Assembly (NCBI GenBank): GCA_964520865.1 | Contig: CAZFOY010000008.1 | Coordinates: 3,155-67,154 of the forward strand | Reading direction: 5' to 3' | Length of the DNA: 64,000 bases | Source: an uncultured Ignavibacteriales bacterium | GTDB lineage: Bacteria; Zixibacteria; MSB-5A5; GN15; FEB-12 | Part shown: positions 44,455-56,721 of the stretch, in pieces | Numbering within the stretch: position 1 is the stretch's first letter | Layout: each line of letters starts with the position of its first letter | Notes under the pieces: generated by a model | What the model was told of the DNA's origin: nothing | Databases searched by the model: none | What the model saw: the letters and a program-made list of their open reading frames with translations, nothing else | Program-made: the position numbers and the translations under genes

Positions 44455-45885
44455 CTAATAGATGTCGTAGCGGGCGACACGGTCTCGAAGCGTATTGCGG
44501 CTGATGCCGAGTGCCTCAGAAGTTTTGACCTGGTTGCCTTCAAAATGCTTCAGGCAGGAAGAAATGATGGCCCGCTCGAAAGCCGACTCCATGAACTGAA
44601 ATATCCGTCCGTGGGAGCTGGCGATCAGTTTCGGCATCACCGGATCGACGATCTTCTTGAACGTCTCGGTATAGTCTTCCTGGAGTACGTCGAGATCGAC
44701 GTCGAGCTTGCCGGAGGTTTCCGTGAAGACCGGGAAGTCTTCGGGCTGAAGGGTCTCCCCTTTGGACATGACCATGGCCGTATGAATGTTGTTCTCAAGC
44801 TCACGAACGTTGCCCGGCCAGTTGTATTTCAGCAGCATCTGCAGGGCGTTCTTGGACACCTTCCGAACCGGCTGCTGCAACTGGTTCGCGAACTTCTTGG
44901 CGAAGAAGTCGATTAACAGGGCGATGTCTCCGCGACGTTCGCGGAGCGGGGGTATGAAGATCGAAACGACTTTCAGACGATAGAACAGATCGACCCGGAA
45001 TGATCCGTCTTTCATTCCCTGGACCAAAGACTTGTTGGTTGCGGCAATAATACGGACGTCGACATCGATCGATTCGTTTCCGCCGACTCGCTCGAACTGT
45101 TTCTCCTGAAGGACTCTCAGCAGTTTCGATTGCGTGAGCATCGACATATCACCGATCTCGTCGAGGAAGAGCGTACCTTTGTCGGCCTGCTCGAACTTAC
45201 CGATCCGTTTGAAATAGGCTCCGGTAAATGCACCCTTCTCATGACCGAACAGCTCCGACTCAAGGAGTGTCTCGGGAAGAGCCGCGCAGTTGACCGAGAG
45301 GAAGGCGTTGCTTCGCCGATTCGAGTTACGGTGGATCGCCCGGGCAACCAGCTCCTTACCGGTGCCGCTCTCGCCGAAAATCAGCACTGCAGCGTCGGTC
45401 TTTGCCACCTGGCCGATCAGCTTGGCGATTTCTACGATCTCGGGCGACTGGCCGATTATTTCCCCGACCTCTTTGGTCGCGGCGGGAGCCTCGATCGTCT
45501 CGCCCGGAGCTTTCGGCTTGTGGTGGAATCCGCAGGCCTTGTTGACCGAGTCGATGAGCTTCTGAATCTCGAACGGTTTCGTGAGATACTCGTAAGCGCC
45601 CTCGCGCATCGCCTCGATTGCATTGTCCGTGGAAACGAATCCGGATATGACGATTACCGGCATCTCCGTATCAATCTGCTTGATCTGTTTGAGAACGTCG
45701 AGACCCGAGAGCGACGGCAGGTTGACGTCGAGCATTACCAGATCGACATCGTTGTGTTCCTTCACGTACCTGCCAACTTCGAGTCCGTCCTCGAGAAATG
45801 CAAAATTGTATTTGTCCGGGTCAAACAGGTTGGCCAGGGACTGAGACAGGTCTTGATCGTCGTCTACAAGCAGTATATTCTTCAT
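44455..45885 (-). CDS. sigma-54-dependent response regulator (REC + AAA+ + Fis-type HTH; NtrC family)
   Basis: REC domain with DLVMLDVNLP. AAA+ domain with GESGTGKELVARAIH and GAFTGA. C-terminal HTH. Confidence 0.95.
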   Translation of the reverse strand: MKNILLVDDDQDLSQSLANLFDPDKYNFAFLEDGLEVGRYVKEHNDVDLVMLDVNLPSLSGLDVLKQIKQIDTEMPVIVISGFVSTDNAIEAMREGAYEYLTKPFEIQKLIDSVNKACGFHHKPKAPGETIEAPAATKEVGEIIGQSPEIVEIAKLIGQVAKTDAAVLIFGESGTGKELVARAIHRNSNRRSNAFLSVNCAALPETLLESELFGHEKGAFTGAYFKRIGKFEQADKGTLFLDEIGDMSMLTQSKLLRVLQEKQFERVGGNESIDVDVRIIAATNKSLVQGMKDGSFRVDLFYRLKVVSIFIPPLRERRGDIALLIDFFAKKFANQLQQPVRKVSKNALQMLLKYNWPGNVRELENNIHTAMVMSKGETLQPEDFPVFTETSGKLDVDLDVLQEDYTETFKKIVDPVMPKLIASSHGRIFQFMESAFERAIISSCLKHFEGNQVKTSEALGISRNTLRDRVARYDIY

Positions 45886-46115
45886 AACCCTTTTTCTACG
45901 CTTTGCAGTACACTCGTATTATCGGCGGCAGTTGAATTTTATGAACAGACCGAGGTCAAAATTTGCACGGTTTTCTTCAGAAAAACGGAAGATTATTCCG
46001 CGTCAGTCGGCGGTTTTCAAACTATTGGACGGAACGGTGCAAACAACGGAACCTCGGCGATGCAAACCGATGCTCATTCGCCGAAAGGTGTTTCAAAATG
46101 AGATGGAAAATTGAA

Positions 46116-46958
46116 TCAGTCTTCTTCGATAAGAAACCGGGTGGCCGTCCCCATCCAGAGAAAATTCACGGCCATATCAACGACAAGGCCGATCAATAGA
46201 AGCCAGTAAATCAACTCCGGACGGAACTTATTCACTATAGTGTCCTCTTGATTAATGAGCAGGTTCAACAGCAGAGGAACCACCATTATGGTCAGGGACA
46301 GAAAGAAAGCCGTGAACGGATGTTTGAGAAATATCTTGAGAGATTCCAGCAATCCGCGGGCAAAGCTCACCTGGTGCACCACGATATAAGGGATAGCGAA
46401 GAAGAAGAACGATACCGTCAGGACGTATAGAAACGGCTGAACCATGTTCGTGAAAACGTAAATACGCCTCGGTGAACCGACCAGTACGGTATGAAGCATT
46501 CCCGGCAACTTGACGTTGATGAACAGGATAATTCCGTTAATCACCAGCCAGGCCAGAACCAGCTGAAACCAGAGATAGACTACGCCGCCAAACGTCTTCT
46601 CTTCTCTTTCGGTGACCTTGACAAATCCGTAGTAGAACATCATGGCCACGGCTCCGAGCACCGCACCTTCGACCAGGATCCCGGCATAGAATTTGGCCCA
46701 ACCGAAGAAATACGGCAGGGTCAGGAAATGTCCGGGGTAATGGGTGAATCCGGTGGCGTAACGGCCATTCACTATATGTATCCAGGGATTGATCAGTCCG
46801 TAGAAGATCGGCGAGAAGAAATCGTAATGGGCGTACAGAATCAGCCAGTCAAAGAGGAAGTAAAGGAACAGCAGTCCCCATATTCTCCCCCGGCCGATTT
46901 GCTTTATGGTATCAACATAAAGGGCGATGAACCTGTTGAGACCCTGGAACGCTGCCAT
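46116..46958 (-). CDS. polytopic membrane protein, unknown function
   Basis: 280 aa, about 6 hydrophobic segments. 12-nt gap to the upstream FN3 lipoprotein gene. Confidence 0.6.
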   Translation of the reverse strand: MAAFQGLNRFIALYVDTIKQIGRGRIWGLLFLYFLFDWLILYAHYDFFSPIFYGLINPWIHIVNGRYATGFTHYPGHFLTLPYFFGWAKFYAGILVEGAVLGAVAMMFYYGFVKVTEREEKTFGGVVYLWFQLVLAWLVINGIILFINVKLPGMLHTVLVGSPRRIYVFTNMVQPFLYVLTVSFFFFAIPYIVVHQVSFARGLLESLKIFLKHPFTAFFLSLTIMVVPLLLNLLINQEDTIVNKFRPELIYWLLLIGLVVDMAVNFLWMGTATRFLIEED

Positions 46959-46970
46959 CGAGATCCTCCC

Positions 46971-48209
46971 TTACGGATTGGATATTCTGACCGTATTCGA
47001 ACCGGCAAATGCACCGTGACGATCGAAAACAAATACCCGGAAATAGTAGCTATTGCCGGCTCCGACACGATAGGCAAACGAAGTACCACCCGTTCCCGGT
47101 TCGTAGTCAATCATCGTGCTGCTGGTGTCCACGGTACTTGAACTCGACCGGTAAAGTCGATAAGCCTCGAAATCGGCATCGTTGGTCGTCGTCCAGTTGA
47201 ACCGTGCCGAATCGCCATCGAGATACCCGACCAATTGGACCGGCAACGGCGGCGTGTTGATATTCAGAAGCGGATTGGCTAACACCGAAGGAGCGTTGTT
47301 GCCGGCCTCGTCGGTAAACGAGCCGGTCACCGTTCCATCGAGCAAATTGGCATTGATCGGAACTATGTACCATCCGGCGTAGATACCGTCGTTGGCAATG
47401 CCGTCCGGAGCGTTACCGTCGTCGTAGAGACTCACTCCCGAGGTCCCACTGAAAGATACTCTCGCCTGACCTCCCGTTTCTCCGGCATCCAGACCGAACG
47501 TTATCGTATCACCCGGGGTGAACGTCGTACCGGTCGGGCTGTAGTAAACAGAATCGATATTCGCGCGGGTATCGAGCGTAATACTGTCCGATAGCAGGGA
47601 CAAAGACTCCACACCATCGGAGAACTGAATCCGTGAGTAAACAGTCTTGTTACCGTCGCCATCCGAAAGCGCGAAACTCACGGTGGTATTGTAGCCCTGA
47701 TAATTCGCATCGGGAAATGTCGAATCCTCGGAAAGAATAACGTCACTCGCACCTGTCGGCGCCGTGAACTGAATCTGAACTGTCCGGGACCGGGTGTAGC
47801 GGGCACCGCCGTTTATGGTGATTGACATGTGCGCTACTCGAGCCACGACCGCCCCTGATCCTCTCCCTTCCAGGCCGCTCAAGAGAACCGGTACGATCCG
47901 GAAAGCATACACCGTGTTGATCTTGAGATTCGTGAGCGTAATCTCGGTCGTTGTCGAAGAATCGAGAAGCTCGGTCGGGATCGTATCGGTGGTAGACGAA
48001 TAAACTCGATACTGGCTGAACAGGGATGAATCGGCAACCGTCCAGGTCAGTCGGACGGCGTCGTTATCCAGAAACACGTGAACATTGGTTGGAGCCTTTC
48101 CGACATCCGGCGGCGAATTCGTCGGATATTTCGAGTCGATATAGCGATTGCAGGCAACTGCCAACAGGAGGCTGACCGCGCATATGATATATAGAAATCT
48201 CCTGGTCAC
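46971..48209 (-). CDS. lipoprotein with N- and C-terminal fibronectin-III-like domains
   Basis: Lipobox LLLAVAC. FN3-like segments (RLTWTV...YRVYSS...YAFRIVPV and RFNWTT...YRLYRS...YYFRVFVFD). Central INGGARYT...DGDGNKTVY Ig-like module. Confidence 0.68.
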   Translation of the reverse strand: MTRRFLYIICAVSLLLAVACNRYIDSKYPTNSPPDVGKAPTNVHVFLDNDAVRLTWTVADSSLFSQYRVYSSTTDTIPTELLDSSTTTEITLTNLKINTVYAFRIVPVLLSGLEGRGSGAVVARVAHMSITINGGARYTRSRTVQIQFTAPTGASDVILSEDSTFPDANYQGYNTTVSFALSDGDGNKTVYSRIQFSDGVESLSLLSDSITLDTRANIDSVYYSPTGTTFTPGDTITFGLDAGETGGQARVSFSGTSGVSLYDDGNAPDGIANDGIYAGWYIVPINANLLDGTVTGSFTDEAGNNAPSVLANPLLNINTPPLPVQLVGYLDGDSARFNWTTTNDADFEAYRLYRSSSSTVDTSSTMIDYEPGTGGTSFAYRVGAGNSYYFRVFVFDRHGAFAGSNTVRISNP

Positions 48210-48225
48210 TTCGATCTCCTTCGGC

Positions 48226-48963
48226 TCAAAACTTGAATGAAAGCTGCAATCCGACGTGGGCGGGATCGCTCGACGGCGCCACGGACAGGCCCTTCACGAA
48301 AATCTCGCTCCGGTTGTTCGGGAAAAAGAACAGCGCATCGAGAAAGCTCAGTCCCCAGGTCCCGATGGCAGATCCGATACTGATACGCCGCAGGTTCTCG
48401 GCATCCCAGGCATCGTGCTGACGGCGCTGGAGGGTGGCGTATGACGTCTGCAGCTCGGTGATGTTCCCGTATCGCAGCAGGGAATCGTACTCGTTTTTGG
48501 CTGTCCTGTATCGGTCGTACTTGATGTCGAAATCATGATCGGTGACGAAATACGCGGCCACCGAAGCGGCGGCGAGAAAAGTCAGCGCATACCCCTTGAA
48601 TTTCTGGTCGGCGTAGCGCTGGCCCCATCCCGGAATAAAAAGGGATCTGGCTGCCGCCTTGAAACGAGTCTTCGGAGACAACGTAACGTTGACTTCCATC
48701 GGCTGGGTAGGATCGACTGAAATTCTGGTCCTGTACGTCTCGTACCCCTGCCTTCTCACGACGACCTTGTAGTTGCCGATGATGAGCTGTCGGAATCTTG
48801 CGGGGGTTACTCCGGCCACCCGGGCCTCTCCTTCGAGCGTAACCTGAGCGCCGGCCGGGGTTGAATTGACGGTGAGATCCGAATTGAACGGACTCTGACA
48901 CCAAGACGCCGAAGAAAGCGTCATCATTATCGTGGCAATGGCCAAAATCCGTTTCAGTACCAT
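48226..48963 (-). CDS. PEGA-domain protein with DUF5683-like C-terminal region
   Basis: Signal peptide. PEGA pattern VNSTPAGAQVTLEG...GVTP...GNYKVVVRRQGYE, then FIPGWGQRYA. Confidence 0.72.
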   Translation of the reverse strand: MVLKRILAIATIMMTLSSASWCQSPFNSDLTVNSTPAGAQVTLEGEARVAGVTPARFRQLIIGNYKVVVRRQGYETYRTRISVDPTQPMEVNVTLSPKTRFKAAARSLFIPGWGQRYADQKFKGYALTFLAAASVAAYFVTDHDFDIKYDRYRTAKNEYDSLLRYGNITELQTSYATLQRRQHDAWDAENLRRISIGSAIGTWGLSFLDALFFFPNNRSEIFVKGLSVAPSSDPAHVGLQLSFKF

Positions 48964-49041
48964 CTGTCTTCCTGAGTAACTGCTGACACGTCTTTAATTA
49001 TCGGTGAAAATACGACATTCATAATATCAAGACAAGCAAAT

Positions 49042-49068
49042 AAAAAAAGCCGTGTGGGGCGCACGGCT
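49042..49068 (-). terminator. intrinsic terminator after the sugar transferase gene
   Basis: Minus strand reads AGCCGTG-cgcccca-CACGGCT followed by TTTTTTT. Confidence 0.8.
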
Positions 49069-49105
49069 CTTATAGCTTTTGCGGCTGTAGTTCGGCATTT
49101 CTCGC

Positions 49106-50047
49106 TTAATGAGCGCCTTTACCGGTGAATACAACCTTGACTGTCTTGAACAGAATCTTGATGTCGAGCCAGATCGATCGATTCTCGATATAGCTCAAAT
49201 CGTAGGCGACTTTTCTGCGCACCGAGGAAATCGAGTCATCATATCCATTTTCGACCTGGGCGAGACCGGTGATTCCCGGCTTGACGGCCAGCCGATCGCT
49301 GTATCCGTCCACCTGCTTGGAGAGATCCGCGACGAATTTCGGACGTTCCGGGCGCGGACCCACGAGGGACATTTCCCCTCTCAGGACATTGATGAACTGC
49401 GGGATCTCGTCGATACGGGTCTTGCGAAGGAACTGGCCCAAGCGGGTGATCCGCGGATCGTTCTTGGTCGCCCAGACCGGACCGGAAGCCCGCTCTGCGT
49501 CGTTTACCATAGTGCGGAATTTGATCACGTCGAACAGCTTGCCATGATAGTTCTCACGGCGGCGGTCCCGGCTCCGACGGTCGTTCGCCTCGGCGTCCTG
49601 ATAGACCCGACGGCTGCGCTTGCGTCGTTCGCAACCCACTCTGGTCTGCGAGTAAAAGACCGGACCTTTCGAGTCGAGCTTAATGAGGACCGGCACGATC
49701 AACCATACCGGCAAGGTCAGGACCAGACCTACGATCGCCCCCATTATATCCATTAACCTCTTAACAACGTCGGTCAAAATCCCTCTCACACTCCCCGGCC
49801 TGGTCAGAACTCTCGGCATCGCGAAAATAAATACCGAAGACAGCGCTACAAACAACAGACCCTTGAAGTACTCGCTGAAGAAGTAATTGAATTGGTTGGC
49901 CAAAGTCAAGGACTGTGCGGGCTCGGCCATGGTCCGAGTGATCGTGAAGCTCGAAGCCATGCCGTAGGTAATGTTCTCCCGGGGATAAGCCACTGCGTTT
50001 TCTGTTCTGATATCCAAGTTGTTATTTTGTCGATTTTCCATAATCAC
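49106..50047 (-). CDS. polyprenyl-phosphate sugar phosphotransferase (bacterial sugar transferase, WbaP/EpsB-like)
   Basis: [13 protein letters not shown]...[11 protein letters not shown]...KFRTM...[37 protein letters not shown]. The start codon is uncertain. Confidence 0.88.
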
Positions 50048-50320
50048 TTATAAAGTTTGGGGCTCGTATTAAGTTTTGTTCGATATACAACTGCCTTGAG
50101 CAAATGATTTGCCGAATCCCGAAACCCAGTGCAATTTATGCCTACAAACAGGTAAATTTTTAACCTACTGTGTCACTTGCTGTTACGATGGCAGTTTTTG
50201 CCATTATCGGAGATTATTTTTGTCCGTTTTTGCGGGCAGGAAAAAAGTGGGACGAGAATGTCGTTCTCGACACAATAGGTGCAACAGAATGCGCAAAGGA
50301 CTGAAATACAGGTGCAATTG

Positions 50321-50345
50321 AAAAGCCGGTCGAAATAGACCGGCT
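50321..50345 (-). terminator. intrinsic terminator after the PorV-like gene
   Basis: Minus strand reads AGCCGGTC-tatttc-GACCGGCT followed by TTTTcaatt. Confidence 0.65.
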
Positions 50346-50371
50346 TACACGATTACTCTGATGGGGTCAGA

Positions 50372-51325
50372 TTACCGACCGAATTTGAGAATCAGGGACA
50401 GACGGTGGACATCCTCGGACGAGTATTTGTCTCTGGTGGTGTAGGAATAGTCGAATTCGGCCTTGCCGAGGGTCATTCCGGCGCCGAACGTCAGCCCCGA
50501 ACCGAACGATTTGGTATCGTCCTGAGAATAGAAGTTATAGCCGGTCCTGATGAAATACTCATCATTATAGTTGAACTCGAGTCCGTGCCGTACGACCAGA
50601 TTGCCGTTGATCGGCTTATCGAATTCGATCGCGGCCAGAAGGGAACGGTTGTCCAGGGGAAGAACCGAAGCGCCGATTCGAATCTCCGATGGGAGTTTCT
50701 CAGCCACCAGGCCCTCGAATTTCATAGTGGGACCGAAATTACCGGCGAAACCGGCCAGGGTCACCCGTTCGAATTCGTAACGTAGACCAAAATCAGCGGC
50801 GATAGTCGAGGCGCTTACCTTGTCGAGATGTTGTCCGATGAATTTTCCGGTCACGCCGACGGAGAAGTTCGGGTTTACTTTGTAGCCGATAGACAGACCG
50901 CCCGCCCAATCGTAAGCGGAGATTTCGTTCGTGTATGTTCCGTTGACGTCGTACCCCTTGATGGTACCATAGCCGAGATAAGTCATGGACGCGGCGAAAG
51001 TCGTGCGGTCGGAGACGGTATAGGCGAATGAACCGTGCTCGAGGTTCAGATCCTGAAGCCAGGAAAAGTGCCCGAGCGAAACCTCACCGGCATCGACACT
51101 GGTCAGTCCGGCCGGATTCCAGTAAGACGAGATTGCTCCATTCGACACGGCTGTAAACGCTCCGCCCATTCCGGCAGCTCTGGCACCCACGCCTATGGTA
51201 AGAAAATCAGCAGCCGTACGACCGGCATCGGTCGCGGCCACTGAGACTTTGCCAAGCAACGCAACGAGAATAATCAGGAGAACCCAGCCGACGAGGATTC
51301 TCTTCACAGCGATTTTGACTCCCAT
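50372..51325 (-). CDS. PorV/PorQ-family outer-membrane beta-barrel
   Basis: Signal peptide, then AADFLTIGVGARAAGMGGAFTAVSNGAISSYWNPAGL, the family N-terminal signature. 317 aa, beta pattern throughout. Confidence 0.72.
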   Translation of the reverse strand: MGVKIAVKRILVGWVLLIILVALLGKVSVAATDAGRTAADFLTIGVGARAAGMGGAFTAVSNGAISSYWNPAGLTSVDAGEVSLGHFSWLQDLNLEHGSFAYTVSDRTTFAASMTYLGYGTIKGYDVNGTYTNEISAYDWAGGLSIGYKVNPNFSVGVTGKFIGQHLDKVSASTIAADFGLRYEFERVTLAGFAGNFGPTMKFEGLVAEKLPSEIRIGASVLPLDNRSLLAAIEFDKPINGNLVVRHGLEFNYNDEYFIRTGYNFYSQDDTKSFGSGLTFGAGMTLGKAEFDYSYTTRDKYSSEDVHRLSLILKFGR

Positions 51326-51366
51326 AATCTACCCTTTCGTGAGCATTAGCGTTTTCCGCTTTAATC

Positions 51367-51381
51367 GCAACGCCAATGCCA
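51367..51381 (-). promoter_or_regulatory. sigma-54 (-24/-12) promoter upstream of the PorV-like gene
   Basis: Minus strand reads cTGGCAT-TGGCG-TTGCg, with exact GG-N10-GC spacing. The -12 GC is 41 nt upstream of the ATG at 51325. Confidence 0.6.
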
Positions 51382-51908
51382 GAACCATCCAGTGGTTCGG
51401 GCTTTTTCTCCGTTATCCTGCGATTCCGGAGATGTGTCTGTAACTGATTATGGTCCAACCCATTCCCAGTGAGGCAAGACCGTATTTCAGACGGTTTTTC
51501 GGAGTCCCCTGGAGCCGTCGCAGTAACGTCGGCACCCTCTCTGTTCAGTCTGTGGCCACCGCTATTGCGAAAACTCCAGATCCTATGAACCATCTCTCAC
51601 TTCTACAACGACTTCTGCCCGGAGTCCAAAAATACAACACTTTATTTGTATTGTCGGAAACTTGAACAGCCATTTCACTCAAATATGGGGACTATCCCAT
51701 ATTTCTTGACCTGATTTAGCGTAACTTCAAGTTGTTGTCAACAAAAATGGTAGTTTTTCCGGAAATATTTTCCGCCGACTATCTAATTGTAATTTATAGA
51801 CTTAACTTGACGAATAATTTCATCCAATGAAATCAGAGGCTGTTACCATGATCGCACCGCAGAAACGGTTGAAAGTGCAGGATTTGAGTCAGAGAGAAAG
51901 CTCGAAAA

Positions 51909-54513: not shown

Positions 54514-55197
54514 TCAGCTTTGAATATCGAGGCTCTTTTCCTCGAAGAGACGCTCGGCACGCATTTCAAGCTGGGTACCGGCAAAGTTCTTCTTGATATA
54601 ATCGAGCTTGGCGCGAGCCTTCTCGACATCACCGGCGGCAAGGTAGTCCCGCATAGCCGAGTAGTTGTAATCTCCCGCCAGCGGACCGTCCGGGTACTCG
54701 TTATAAGCGGCGTCAAACTGCTTTGCCGCATCCGCGTAGTTTCCCTGATTCTCCTGACAGGACGCAAGTCCGGCAAGGGCTGAGGCCCGGTCCAACTTGC
54801 TGTCTTTGTACTTATCCAGGTACATTTGATAGTAGCGGGTAGCCTCAGGGTAATTTTTCGTCTGATAATTGATATTCCCCAGCAGCAGGGTAGCCTGCTC
54901 CGCTATTTTCGAGCCCGAGTAATTCTCGAGAACATTCTGCAAACCGAGGATAGCGACCTGGTTGTTACCACTGCGGAAATTCGACAGCGCGTCCGAGAAC
55001 TGATTGGAAGCATCGACCCGTTTGGTCGCCTGGCTGTTCTGATAGTAAACTGCCGCCACAACCAGCAGCACCACGACGACCAGACCGATAAGATAGAATT
55101 GCCAGTTATCACTCAGCTGCTGCTTGGCCTGAAACATGAAACTGGTGAACTTGTCTTCTTTGATCTGTCGCTTGGACAGCTTGACTTTGCCGTACAT
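54514..55197 (-). CDS. membrane-anchored tetratricopeptide-repeat protein (YfgM-like)
   Basis: N-terminal TM segment FYLIGLVVVVLLVVAAVYY followed by TPR-like repeats. Confidence 0.72.
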   Translation of the reverse strand: MYGKVKLSKRQIKEDKFTSFMFQAKQQLSDNWQFYLIGLVVVVLLVVAAVYYQNSQATKRVDASNQFSDALSNFRSGNNQVAILGLQNVLENYSGSKIAEQATLLLGNINYQTKNYPEATRYYQMYLDKYKDSKLDRASALAGLASCQENQGNYADAAKQFDAAYNEYPDGPLAGDYNYSAMRDYLAAGDVEKARAKLDYIKKNFAGTQLEMRAERLFEEKSLDIQS

Positions 55198-55311
55198 GTA
55201 ATTTTTACTCCCGAAACTGTTTATCGCTACCGAGAATTATCGGCGCGATCAATCATTCTCTAAACGCTGTTATCTCTTCCGTCGAGTCGGTCTCTGGTTC
55301 CCGACCCGGAA

Positions 55312-56721
55312 CTAAAATACGCCGCTGAAGGAAAAAGAGATCTGGTGATTCCGATCTTTTTCATTCTCAATCAACACGGTCGGAGCGGCGCCCTGGTTCG
55401 TCGCCGGCACTGTGCTCGACAAAGTACGGTCGAATGTCGAATACGTATAAGCGATATCCAGCTTGATCTGATTCCAGTGAATTCCAGTTCCGGCCGTGAC
55501 ATTGTACTGAGTGGCTGTCGAGGTGTTGCCATTAACGTCGACATTCGGCGCCTGCGACGGCACGTAGCCAAAGCCGGCCCGCAACGGCACCTCGCCGATG
55601 CTTGTCTGCTTCATGTATTCGGCGCCTGTCCGGACTACAAATGTATTCTTCCACATGGGATCGAGGACCTGGAATTTCTCTTCGTTGGTGCCGCCCGGAT
55701 TAATAGTAATCGAAGTCCGGTTCTTGACCTTCAGGCCGGAGAATTTTCTGAACTCAAGATCAGCCGCCAGCAGGAGATTCTCGGTCGCCTTGTAGCCGAT
55801 TCCACCTCCGATAATTAGCGGCATTTCATACTTGATAAGATTGTTGCCGAAATAGACGGTGTCGGTACCGTCGTCCTGAACGAGATTATTGAACCGGTAA
55901 ATGTTGAAGATCGATTCATCGAACTTGTTGTTCAACGTGAACGGCGTTCGTACAATCACACCGCCGTCGAACTTGTCGCCGGTGTATTTGAAACCGATCG
56001 TAAAGTTCACGCCGCTGAATTTATTCGTGTCAATCGTGGTCACGTCGAACGTGGCCAGACCGCGCTGTGCGCCGTTCGGATCGTAACGAAAATCGGGGAT
56101 CGCCGTGAACGAAGTTGTCGTGCGCGGAATGTGACCGGAATAGACGTTCACGGACAGGCCGAACGACACCTTGTCGTAGAATCTGGTGCCGAAAGCGAAA
56201 TTCGCGGTATAGAGTCCTCCGTCGAGCGTGGAGCTGACATCCTGTGTCAAAGCCAGCGTGTCGTCTTCGGGTCCGGTTGTCGTGATCCAGTGGAAGATCT
56301 CCGTTCCCGTAAAATTGAATCCGGACTGCTGGAAAATATCAGCATTTCTGGTCCAGTTGACCGATCCGACGAACGGATGGCCTTTGATACGAAGCGGTGC
56401 AATAAAACTAAGCGAATTGATGGAACCGAAACTTCCGGTGTGATCGGAAGCCGAAGAAATCATAGCGAAACTCACCACCGAATTGCCGCGCGGAATCAGC
56501 GATTGGTAGCTGACCCCGAGCTGAATCTTATCATCAAGATAGATGCCGGCCGGGTTCCAGGACGCTCCATTGACCCCATCAGAAATTCCAAGGTATGCGT
56601 TCCCCATTCCCCGCGCTCTGGCCCCTCCGCCAACGAAATCAAAATTGTAGTACTCGAAACCAAAAGCGGTTGCTGATAGCAGCACAAAAACAACCGCAAC
56701 CCTTAACCACATACGCATCAT
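55312..56721 (-). CDS. outer-membrane beta-barrel with PorV/FadL-like N-terminal motif
   Basis: Signal peptide, then GGGARARGMGNAYLGISDGVNGASWNPAGI. 469 aa, ends FSFSGVF. Confidence 0.68.
   Translation of the reverse strand: MMRMWLRVAVVFVLLSATAFGFEYYNFDFVGGGARARGMGNAYLGISDGVNGASWNPAGIYLDDKIQLGVSYQSLIPRGNSVVSFAMISSASDHTGSFGSINSLSFIAPLRIKGHPFVGSVNWTRNADIFQQSGFNFTGTEIFHWITTTGPEDDTLALTQDVSSTLDGGLYTANFAFGTRFYDKVSFGLSVNVYSGHIPRTTTSFTAIPDFRYDPNGAQRGLATFDVTTIDTNKFSGVNFTIGFKYTGDKFDGGVIVRTPFTLNNKFDESIFNIYRFNNLVQDDGTDTVYFGNNLIKYEMPLIIGGGIGYKATENLLLAADLEFRKFSGLKVKNRTSITINPGGTNEEKFQVLDPMWKNTFVVRTGAEYMKQTSIGEVPLRAGFGYVPSQAPNVDVNGNTSTATQYNVTAGTGIHWNQIKLDIAYTYSTFDRTLSSTVPATNQGAAPTVLIENEKDRNHQISFSFSGVF

What the first reader, a model, noticed from the sequence alone, without database searches (positions are those of the whole stretch)
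51367..51381. Consensus-quality sigma-54 promoter in front of a PorV/PorQ-family outer-membrane gene
The minus strand reads cTGGCAT-TGGCG-TTGCg, matching TGGCAC-N5-TTGC at 9 of 10 defined positions with exact spacing. It lies 41-56 nt upstream of the PorV-like ATG (51325), leaving a ~30-nt leader with an AAGGG box. It was the only exact GG-N10-GC match I found when hand-scanning the intergenic spacers of this window.

An NtrC-type activator is encoded 5.5 kb away (44455-45885). Enhancer-dependent control of a PorV-like barrel, a family tied to type IX secretion cargo shuttling and OM homeostasis, is not something I know to be described.
Basis: partly seen in the sequence, partly recalled or inferred. 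Interest (0 to 1): 0.55.

Follow-up and report, generated by a model that had tools for sequence, protein, structure and literature searches.

The report
Conserved sigma-54 promoter, Zixibacteria envelope locus
The flagged motif is very probably a real sigma-54 (enhancer-dependent) promoter for an outer-membrane barrel gene in an uncultured Zixibacteria genome, because every close orthologue keeps it; this kind of control is ordinary for cell-envelope genes.

Summary
The sequence is as described: minus strand 51381-51367 reads TGGCATTGGCGTTGC, and 41 nt separate it from the ATG (51325) of a PorV/PorQ-family gene. Motif quality alone is not above chance for 64 kb. Comparative evidence decides it. 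All 14 distinct orthologous upstream regions (37-90% aa identity, Zixibacteria-type MAGs and metagenome contigs) keep GG-C-A-Y-N5-TTGC 36-47 nt before the start codon, while the spacer and flanks vary. About 55 more distant PorV-family homologues lack it.

It follows an intrinsic terminator and precedes a sugar-transferase/PEGA/fn3/membrane operon. An NtrC-family response regulator with intact GAFTGA lies downstream in conserved synteny and has its own sigma-70-like promoter.

The barrel is not a PorV or PorQ equivalog, and the window holds no T9SS genes, so the T9SS angle is unsupported. rpoN could not be checked.

One oddity: five short boxes upstream of the first promoter keep their spacing to ±1-2 nt over ~320 bp in 13 loci, with no conserved RNA structure. 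This may be a fixed-geometry enhancer.

Verdict: a real promoter and a new member of a known kind, of modest interest.

The parts
51367..51381 (-). P1: sigma-54 promoter core TGGCAT-N5-TTGC (-24 GG at 51380-51379, -12 GC at 51368-51367). Predicted start site about 51355.
   Evidence: Sequence read. Only exact match in the window. Conserved as GG[C/T]A[C/T]-N5-TTGC in all 14 distinct orthologous contexts.
51332..51337 (-). Shine-Dalgarno box AAAGGG in the predicted ~30-nt leader.
   Evidence: The AAGGG/AAAGGGG box is conserved in alignments A1 and A4.
50372..51325 (-). PorV/PorQ-family outer-membrane beta-barrel gene (317 aa). Not a PorV or PorQ equivalog.
   Evidence: NF033709 198 bits (cutoff 90). 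NF033710 102 (cutoff 250). NF033711 141 (cutoff 220). PF19572 37 bits.
50319..50346 (-). Intrinsic terminator after the barrel gene (AAGCCGGTC...GACCGGCTTTT). It makes the P1 unit monocistronic.
   Evidence: Folds at -17.6 kcal/mol, z = -5.3. Equivalent hairpin plus T-run in L003, L004, L005, L010 and L011. Compensatory changes seen in L003.
50099..50115 (-). P2: second sigma-54 promoter TCGGCAAATCATTTGCT, about 58 nt upstream of the sugar-transferase ATG (50041).
   Evidence: Third-best PWM hit in the window. GGCAA...TTTGCT is invariant in 7 of 7 loci.
46116..50041 (-). P2 operon: polyprenyl-phosphate sugar transferase (49106-50041), PEGA/DUF5683 protein (48226-48963), fn3/choice-of-anchor protein (46971-48209), polytopic membrane protein (46116-46958).
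   Evidence: Pfam and NCBIfam hits. Gene order conserved in L006, L003, L005, L008, and partly in L012.
44455..45885 (-). NtrC-family response-regulator bEBP (REC + AAA+ sigma-54 interaction domain + HTH_8; GAFTGA intact). It has its own sigma-70-like promoter (GCCGATAATA at 45917-45926).
   Evidence: It is 74-96% identical in orthologous loci against 39-60% for its neighbours in the divergent loci. Its promoter block is conserved in 5 loci.
51439..51704 (-). Conserved boxes upstream of P1 at rigid spacing. Box1 is a TGTGGG hairpin/palindrome (51681-51704). Box2 is CTGTTCA-N4-TTCCGACAAT (51650-51669). Box3 is TGnnCA (51553-51558). Box4 is GGGAATGGGTTGG...AATCAGTTACA (51439-51467). These are candidate enhancer and DNA-bending sites.
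   Evidence: Alignments A1 and A4. Ungapped display. Offsets constant to within 1-2 nt in 13 loci. No ORF, no Rfam family, no conserved RNA pairing.
51713..51773 (-). Distal sigma-70-like promoter P0: -35 TTGACA at 51736-51741, 17-nt spacer, -10 TAAATC at 51713-51718. It is preceded by the palindrome GGAAAATATTTCC (51761-51773).
   Evidence: TTGACA is present in 8 of the 12 aligned loci; it is absent in L011, and replaced in L013, L017 (not among the 12) and L025. Not listed by the consensus scan because the -10 lacks the final T.

Best explanation
The site is a functional sigma-54 (RpoN) promoter, here called P1.

Proposed mechanism: sigma-54 holoenzyme binds the -24 GG (51380-51379) and -12 GC (51368-51367) and forms a closed complex. 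The complex waits for ATP hydrolysis by an enhancer-binding protein bound upstream. Transcription then starts near 51355. The product is a monocistronic mRNA with a 30-nt leader and an AAAGGG ribosome-binding site. It encodes a PorV/PorQ-family outer-membrane barrel and ends at the intrinsic terminator at 50346-50319.

A second sigma-54 promoter, P2 (50115-50099), drives the adjacent sugar-transferase/PEGA/fn3/membrane operon. Together they form a small enhancer-dependent cell-envelope locus that is conserved across Zixibacteria-type genomes.

The most likely activator is the NtrC-family response regulator encoded at 44455-45885. It would be phosphorylated by a kinase that I did not identify. 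The rigidly spaced conserved boxes 65-320 bp upstream of P1 are the candidate enhancer and DNA-bending sites.

What is shown: the motif, its conservation, the gene content, the terminators and the synteny.
What is inferred: sigma-54 dependence, the start site, which activator acts, and the role of the boxes.
For: 1. The sequence and spacing match the sigma-54 -24/-12 consensus.
2. All 14 orthologues with at least 37% aa identity carry the motif ending 33-42 nt before the estimated start codon (36-47 nt after start codons were refined). Of about 55 PorV-family homologues at 26-34% identity, only one (L030) has a comparable site.
3. Column counts over the 14 distinct contexts: GG 14/14, C 13/14, A 14/14, Y 14/14, TTGC 14/14. 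Spacer and flanks vary.
4. The conserved pattern is asymmetric. TT before GC is invariant, but the mirror positions after GGCA are T/C rather than AA. This fits sigma-54 and not a palindromic operator.
5. A second promoter of the same class, 1.27 kb downstream, is conserved in 7 loci.
6. A bEBP with intact GAFTGA sits in conserved synteny in 6 loci and is 74-96% identical. GAFTGA integrity is the accepted criterion for sigma-54-dependent activators (PMC3162934).
7. Sigma-54 regulons characteristically cover EPS, LPS, lipoprotein and other envelope genes (PMC3162934).
Against: - rpoN was not found in the window or in 814 kb of fetched loci, and the rest of the genome could not be searched.
- There are no transcript data.
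- Motif score alone is within chance for 64 kb.
- The T at -26 is not conserved, and -11 is mostly C rather than A/T.
- A conserved sigma-70-like promoter lies 360 nt upstream on the same strand, so P1 need not be the only or main promoter.
- No sequence word is shared between the upstream regions of P1 and P2.
- In L009 the P1-gene module is followed by secA rather than the operon and regulator. This weakens the assignment of the local bEBP to P1.
- The conserved boxes lie mostly farther upstream than the usual 100-150 bp (PMC7057263).
Confidence: 0.82

Rival explanations
1. The gene is transcribed mainly from the distal sigma-70-type promoter P0 (TTGACA-17-TAAATC, 51741-51713) with a leader of about 380 nt. 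P1 would then be only a conditional second promoter, as with glnAp1/glnAp2, or inactive.
For: The -35 TTGACA is present in 8 of the 12 aligned loci, with a TAnAnT-like -10 at a 17-nt spacing in most of them. An upstream palindrome GGAAAAnnTTTCC is also conserved. A hairpin lies at the predicted 5' end, with one compensatory change in L003.
Against: L013, L017 and L025 have lost the TTGACA region and L011 lacks it, yet all four keep the boxes and P1. The -24/-12 bases are more strictly conserved than the P0 -10. The two promoters are not mutually exclusive.
Confidence: 0.1
2. The conserved GGCA-N7-TGCC is an operator for a dimeric transcription factor, not a sigma-54 promoter.
For: In 10 of 14 contexts the base after TTGC is C, which gives the inverted repeat GGCA-N7-TGCC.
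Against: The conservation is asymmetric: TTGC is invariant, but the mirror position is GGCAY, not GGCAA. Four of 14 contexts break the palindrome. P2 (GGCAA-N5-TTTGCT) is not palindromic yet has the same GG-N10-GC frame. The distance to the start codon suits a promoter. A bEBP is encoded in the locus.
Confidence: 0.05
3. The motif is part of a structured cis-regulatory RNA or small RNA that occupies the 580-nt spacer.
For: The spacer is long, non-coding and of conserved length, with conserved islands. The window copy folds better than shuffles (z = -3.4).
Against: No Rfam match. The RNAalifold consensus energy is about zero, -1.7 kcal/mol. z-scores are +1.2 and -0.6 in L005 and L008. No base pair is positionally conserved in at least 6 of 9 sequences, the same as reverse-complement and shuffled controls.
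Confidence: 0.03
4. The match is chance, with no function.
For: 13% of shuffled windows contain such a match, and its PWM score is within the shuffle range.
Against: It is conserved at the same position in every orthologue down to 37% aa identity while the surrounding bases diverge.
Confidence: 0.01

Closest known systems
Sigma-54-dependent envelope and exopolysaccharide loci (the 'bacterial exterior' regulon theme, Francke et al. 2011, PMC3162934; for example NtrC- or RpoN-controlled EPS clusters in Vibrio, PMC11722192)
   Same: A -24/-12 promoter in front of a priming sugar transferase and outer-membrane or surface proteins, with an NtrC-family bEBP with GAFTGA encoded in the same locus.
   Different: The lineage is uncultured Zixibacteria. 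The first gene is a PorV/PorQ-family barrel with its own promoter and terminator. The enhancer is not identified. Nothing has been tested experimentally.
E. coli glnAp1/glnAp2 tandem promoters (my own knowledge)
   Same: A distal sigma-70 promoter and a proximal sigma-54 promoter on the same strand, with regulatory sites between them.
   Different: The two promoters here are about 360 nt apart, against about 115 nt in glnA. The boxes do not resemble NtrC sites (TGCACC-N5-GGTGCA). The regulated gene is an outer-membrane barrel.
IHF-assisted sigma-54 promoters such as Pu, nifH and psp (PMC7057263)
   Same: An asymmetric conserved element, T-a-n-CAA-N4-TTA in most clades, lies about 65 bp upstream of the -24 element. 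That is where IHF sites usually lie, with further conserved boxes upstream of it.
   Different: The window's own copy matches only AA-N4-TTA. The presence of IHF in Zixibacteria was not checked. The upstream boxes extend to about 320 bp, farther than the usual 100-150 bp.
T9SS PorV / PorQ of Bacteroidota, regulated by PorXY-SigP (my own knowledge)
   Same: The protein belongs to the same broad FadL-like barrel family (NF033709).
   Different: It fails both equivalog models. No T9SS genes or CTD cargo are in the window. The control is by sigma-54 rather than an ECF sigma factor.

Membership tests
Sigma-54 (-24/-12) promoter | GG and GC dinucleotides exactly 10 nt apart within TGGCAC-N5-TTGCW | tested here: met
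   TGGCAT-TGGCG-TTGC matches 9 of 10 positions. The base at -11 is G rather than W.
Sigma-54 (-24/-12) promoter | Lies upstream of and co-oriented with a gene, in non-coding DNA, leaving a plausible leader | tested here: met
   41 nt lie between the GC and the ATG. The spacer has no conserved ORF.
Sigma-54 (-24/-12) promoter | Core bases conserved in orthologous upstream regions while the spacer varies | tested here: met
   14 of 14 distinct contexts keep the core. Distant homologues lack it.
Sigma-54 (-24/-12) promoter | rpoN present in the genome | not testable with these tools
   No RpoN box in the window or in 814 kb of loci. Presence is inferred from the GAFTGA-bearing bEBP.
Sigma-54 (-24/-12) promoter | A bEBP with an intact GAFTGA loop is available | tested here: met
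   The protein at 44455-45885 has GAFTGA and PF00158 at 242 bits. It is conserved in 6 loci.
Sigma-54 (-24/-12) promoter | Transcription start about 12 nt downstream of the GC, dependent on rpoN | not testable with these tools
   No transcript data are available.
Sigma-54 (-24/-12) promoter | Identifiable upstream activating sequence | tested here: inconclusive
   Conserved, rigidly spaced boxes exist 65-320 bp upstream. None is a clear dyad, and none is shared with P2.
T9SS PorV (NF033710) / PorQ (NF033711) | Score above the curated equivalog cut-off | tested here: not met
   PorV 101.6 against 250. PorQ 141.1 against 220.
T9SS PorV (NF033710) / PorQ (NF033711) | T9SS genomic context (PorU, Sov/SprA, GldKLMN, CTD cargo) | tested here: not met
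   None among about 40 window proteins scanned. The genome-wide situation is unknown.
PorV/PorQ broad family (NF033709) | Score above the subfamily cut-off | tested here: met
   198.4 bits against 90, covering residues 37-315.
NtrC (TIGR01818) proper | Score above the equivalog cut-off | tested here: not met
   460 against 558.6. PEP-CTERM PrsR scores 411 against 502.6. It is therefore a generic NtrC-family response-regulator bEBP.

The most novel reading that the evidence does not exclude
The roughly 320-bp region upstream of P1 may be a fixed-geometry enhancer module. It holds five short boxes: TGTGGG, TGnnCA-N5-TTCCGACAAT, TGnnCA, AATGG and AA-N4-TTA. Their distances to each other and to the -24 GG are held to ±1-2 nt in 13 loci, including orthologues at about 50% aa identity. 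The DNA between the boxes is unalignable between clades and shows no conserved RNA structure. This would imply an unusually long and rigid nucleoprotein architecture for sigma-54 activation, or an undescribed cis-element class, specific to Zixibacteria.
Probability: 0.25. Interest if true: 0.55.

Novelty: new member of a known kind. Interest (0 to 1): 0.32.

Why it matters
The result gives a well-supported pair of sigma-54 promoters, and hence a first regulatory handle, in an uncultured phylum where no transcriptional regulation has been described. No paper in the searched library links Zixibacteria or PorV with sigma-54 or RpoN. It extends the known association of sigma-54 with cell-envelope genes to a PorV/PorQ-family barrel. 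It also warns against reading T9SS function into every PorV-family hit. The rigidly spaced upstream boxes are a concrete target for DNA-binding assays.

Tried and rejected
- **PWM significance from the window alone.** The site is the top hit but is not above shuffled windows.
- **Structured RNA or sRNA in the 580-nt spacer.** Rejected on five results. Rfam gave nothing at the gathering or E-value threshold. RNAalifold gave -1.7 kcal/mol. Single-sequence z-scores were inconsistent. No base pair was positionally conserved across 9 sequences.
- **Small ORF in the spacer.** No frame is consistently open, and inter-box distances differ by 1-2 nt, not by multiples of 3.
- **Shared enhancer word between the P1 and P2 upstream regions.** No 6-8-mer is common in at least 4 of 6 genomes.
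- **Sigma-54 promoter before the bEBP gene.** Only L005 has a candidate. The conserved element there is a sigma-70-like GCCGATAATA block.
- **Sigma-54 promoter before the second barrel gene (55312-56721).** The only nearby hit lacks the GC.
- **rpoN in the held sequence.** None found.
- **Literature linking sigma-54 to PorV, T9SS or Zixibacteria.** Nothing relevant.

Full report
**1. Observation**

The minus strand at 51381-51367 reads TGGCATTGGCGTTGC.
- GG lies at 51380-51379 and GC at 51368-51367. This is exactly the GG-N10-GC frame of sigma-54 promoters and matches TGGCAC-N5-TTGC at 9 of 10 positions.
- The ATG of the downstream ORF (50372-51325, minus strand) is at 51325, and an AAAGGG box lies at 51337-51332.
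- With the C of GC taken as -12, the predicted start is about 51355 and the leader about 30 nt.
- It is the only exact TGGCAY-N5-TTGC in the window. However, 13 of 100 dinucleotide shuffles contain at least one such match.
- With an approximate position weight matrix, which I built from memory of the Barrios-type consensus and is therefore rough, the site is the best hit in the window at 13.4 bits. Shuffled 64-kb windows reach 12-18 bits.

The motif is therefore real. Its quality alone does not exceed chance.

**2. Source and genes**

The identical barrel protein occurs on JGI metagenome contigs. The closest genome hits are MAGs labelled Zixibacteria/Zixiibacteriota, with two labelled uncultured Ignavibacteriales.

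The downstream protein passes the broad PorV/PorQ family model (NF033709, 198 bits against a cutoff of 90). It fails the T9SS PorV equivalog (102 against 250) and the PorQ equivalog (141 against 220).

The following genes all lie on the minus strand:

| Coordinates | Product |
|---|---|
| 49106-50041 | polyprenyl-phosphate sugar transferase |
| 48226-48963 | PEGA/DUF5683 protein |
| 46971-48209 | fn3/choice-of-anchor protein |
| 46116-46958 | polytopic membrane protein |
| 44455-45885 | response-regulator bEBP (REC, Sigma54_activat 242 bits, AAA_lid, HTH_8) |

The bEBP has an intact GAFTGA. It is below the NtrC and PrsR equivalog cut-offs, so it is a generic NtrC-family activator. Scanning about 40 proteins of the window found housekeeping and lipid-metabolism genes. 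It found no T9SS component, no rpoN and no histidine kinase.

**3. Comparative test of the promoter**

Five genome loci and 80 metagenome loci encoding relatives of the barrel were fetched.
- Every relative with at least 37% aa identity carries GG[C/T]A[C/T]-N5-TTGC ending 33-42 nt before the estimated start codon. These are 14 loci besides the window.
- Of about 55 homologues at 26-34% identity, only one (L030) has a comparable site at that position. The reverse strand of the same regions serves as a control and shows nothing similar.
- After start codons were refined, the GC-to-start gap is 36-47 nt.
- In the 14 distinct sequence contexts the counts are GG 14/14, C 13/14, A 14/14, T/C 14/14 and TTGC 14/14.
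- The five spacer positions, the base before GG and both flanks vary freely.
- The conserved pattern is asymmetric. TT before GC is invariant, but the mirror positions after GGCA are T/C. This fits sigma-54 recognition better than a palindromic operator, even though 10 of 14 sites read GGCA-N7-TGCC.

This is a clear phylogenetic footprint of a -24/-12 promoter, specific to one orthologous group.

**4. A second promoter and the transcription units**

Directly after the barrel gene there is an intrinsic terminator (window 50346-50319, -17.6 kcal/mol, z = -5.3). L003, L004, L005, L010 and L011 have equivalent hairpins with T-runs, built from different sequences.

Downstream of it lies TCGGCAAATCATTTGCT (50115-50099), the third-best PWM hit in the window. 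GGCAA...TTTGCT is invariant in all 7 loci that extend that far. In each it sits about 35-85 nt before the sugar-transferase start.

The bEBP gene is separated from the operon by 230 nt. It has its own conserved sigma-70-like block (GCCGATAATA, 45926-45917) rather than a sigma-54 site.

The order barrel / sugar transferase / PEGA / fn3 / membrane / bEBP / Mre11-like is kept in L006, L003, L005 and L008, and partly in L012. The bEBP is 74-96% identical, against 39-60% for its neighbours in the divergent loci.

In L009 the barrel gene keeps its full upstream region but is followed by secA. The P1 module is therefore separable from the operon.

**5. The long upstream spacer**

The 580-nt spacer (51326-51908) contains a distal sigma-70-like promoter: TTGACA at 51741-51736, a 17-nt spacer, then TAAATC. 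It is preceded by the palindrome GGAAAATATTTCC.

Between this promoter and P1, alignments show short conserved islands:

| Box | Sequence | Window coordinates |
|---|---|---|
| 1 | TGTGGG hairpin/palindrome | 51704-51681 |
| 2 | CTGnnCA-N4-TTCCGACAAT | 51669-51650 |
| 3 | second TGnnCA | 51558-51553 |
| 4 | GnAATGGnT...AA-N4-TTA | 51467-51439 |

Their offsets are almost invariant in 13 loci: 26, 59/70, 169, 263, 278, with the -24 GG at 345-347. The CCGACAA-to-GG distance is 275-277 nt everywhere. By contrast, the spacer before P2 varies from 256 to 452 nt.

The region is not coding. No frame is consistently open, and length differences are 1-2 nt rather than multiples of 3.

I found no evidence that it is a structured RNA:
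- Rfam gave no match.
- The RNAalifold consensus energy is -1.7 kcal/mol.
- Single-sequence z-scores are -3.4, +1.2 and -0.6.
- No base pair is positionally shared by at least 6 of 9 sequences, the same as the controls.

L013, L017 and L025 have lost the TTGACA region but keep the boxes and P1.

In most clades box 4b reads T-a-n-CAA-N4-TTA. This resembles the IHF consensus WATCAANNNNTTR (my own knowledge) and lies about 65 bp upstream of -24, where IHF sites usually sit. The window's own copy is the weakest.

My reading, which is inference, is that these boxes form the enhancer and bending architecture for P1. This would be longer than the usual 100-150 bp (PMC7057263). No 6-8-mer is shared between the regions upstream of P1 and P2. 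The region upstream of P2 has its own conserved block, GCGCAA-N4-TTGCA (50296-50271).

**6. Mechanism**

Most likely, sigma-54 holoenzyme occupies P1 and P2 as closed complexes. A phosphorylated NtrC-family bEBP bound upstream then drives open-complex formation through its GAFTGA loop, which is the general mechanism (PMC7057263). The locally encoded bEBP is the best candidate.

The outcome would be conditional expression of an outer-membrane barrel and of a glycan-priming and surface-protein operon.
- Shown: motif, conservation, terminators, synteny and domain content.
- Inferred: sigma-54 dependence, start sites, the activator's identity and the role of the boxes.

I put the functional sigma-54 promoter at about 0.8. 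I put the specific activator assignment for P1 at about 0.45.

**7. Comparison with known systems and novelty**

Sigma-54 promoters and bEBPs are characteristically associated with EPS, LPS, lipoprotein and other envelope functions. GAFTGA integrity marks true sigma-54 activators (PMC3162934). This locus fits that theme.

The tandem sigma-70/sigma-54 arrangement recalls glnAp1/glnAp2 (my own knowledge). T9SS porV in Bacteroidota is controlled by PorXY/SigP (my own knowledge). The protein here is not a PorV or PorQ equivalog and has no T9SS context, so 'sigma-54 control of T9SS' is not what is seen.

No paper in the searched library links sigma-54 or RpoN with PorV, T9SS or Zixibacteria.

**8. 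Verdict**

This is a real, conserved promoter and a new member of a known kind. Interest is modest at 0.32. The rigid upstream architecture is the one feature that might deserve follow-up.

Noticed in passing
window 50099-50115 (-): A second sigma-54 promoter (TCGGCAAATCATTTGCT) sits in front of the sugar-transferase operon. GGCAA...TTTGCT is invariant in 7 orthologous loci.
   Followed up: yes
window 51439-51704 (-); L003-L025 equivalents: Five short conserved boxes upstream of P1 keep their mutual distances and their distance to the -24 GG to within ±1-2 nt over about 320 bp in 13 loci. The intervening sequence is unalignable between clades. There is no ORF, no Rfam family and no conserved RNA pairing.
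   Followed up: partly
window 51713-51773 (-): A conserved sigma-70-like promoter (perfect TTGACA, 17-nt spacer, TAAATC) with a palindrome GGAAAATATTTCC centred about 26 nt upstream of the -35. It lies 360 nt upstream of P1 on the same strand. It is replaced in L013, L017 and L025, and L011 lacks it.
   Followed up: partly
window 50271-50296 (-): A conserved block TTGCGCATTCTGTTGCACCTATTGTG lies about 160-185 nt upstream of P2. Its core is GCAA-N4-TTGC, an inverted repeat that is perfect in L005, L008 and L010. It is a candidate activator site for P2.
   Followed up: partly
window 45917-45926 (-): The bEBP gene has its own conserved sigma-70-like -10 block, GCCGATAATA, 30-40 nt before its start in 5 loci. 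The regulator is therefore probably not autoregulated through sigma-54.
   Followed up: partly
window 54514-56721 (-): A second, larger barrel of the same superfamily (469 aa; weak BamG and PorV_fam hits, both below cutoff) is followed by a BamD/YfiO-like TPR lipoprotein gene (227 aa). The pair is conserved in L006, L003 and L007. No sigma-54 site lies in front of it.
   Followed up: partly
L012 7986-8934; L013 844-1741; L025 1748-2518: In these metagenome contigs the barrel gene is split into 2-3 frames, from frameshifts or assembly errors, yet P1 and the boxes are intact.
   Followed up: no
L009 6626-9601: In this contig the P1-plus-barrel module is followed by a secA-like gene instead of the sugar-transferase operon. 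The module has therefore moved independently of the operon.
   Followed up: partly
window 51382-51398: An inverted repeat GAACCA-N5-TGGTTC abuts the -24 element. It is conserved only in the closest relatives (L006; imperfect in L003). The scan flags it as terminator-like on the + strand.
   Followed up: no
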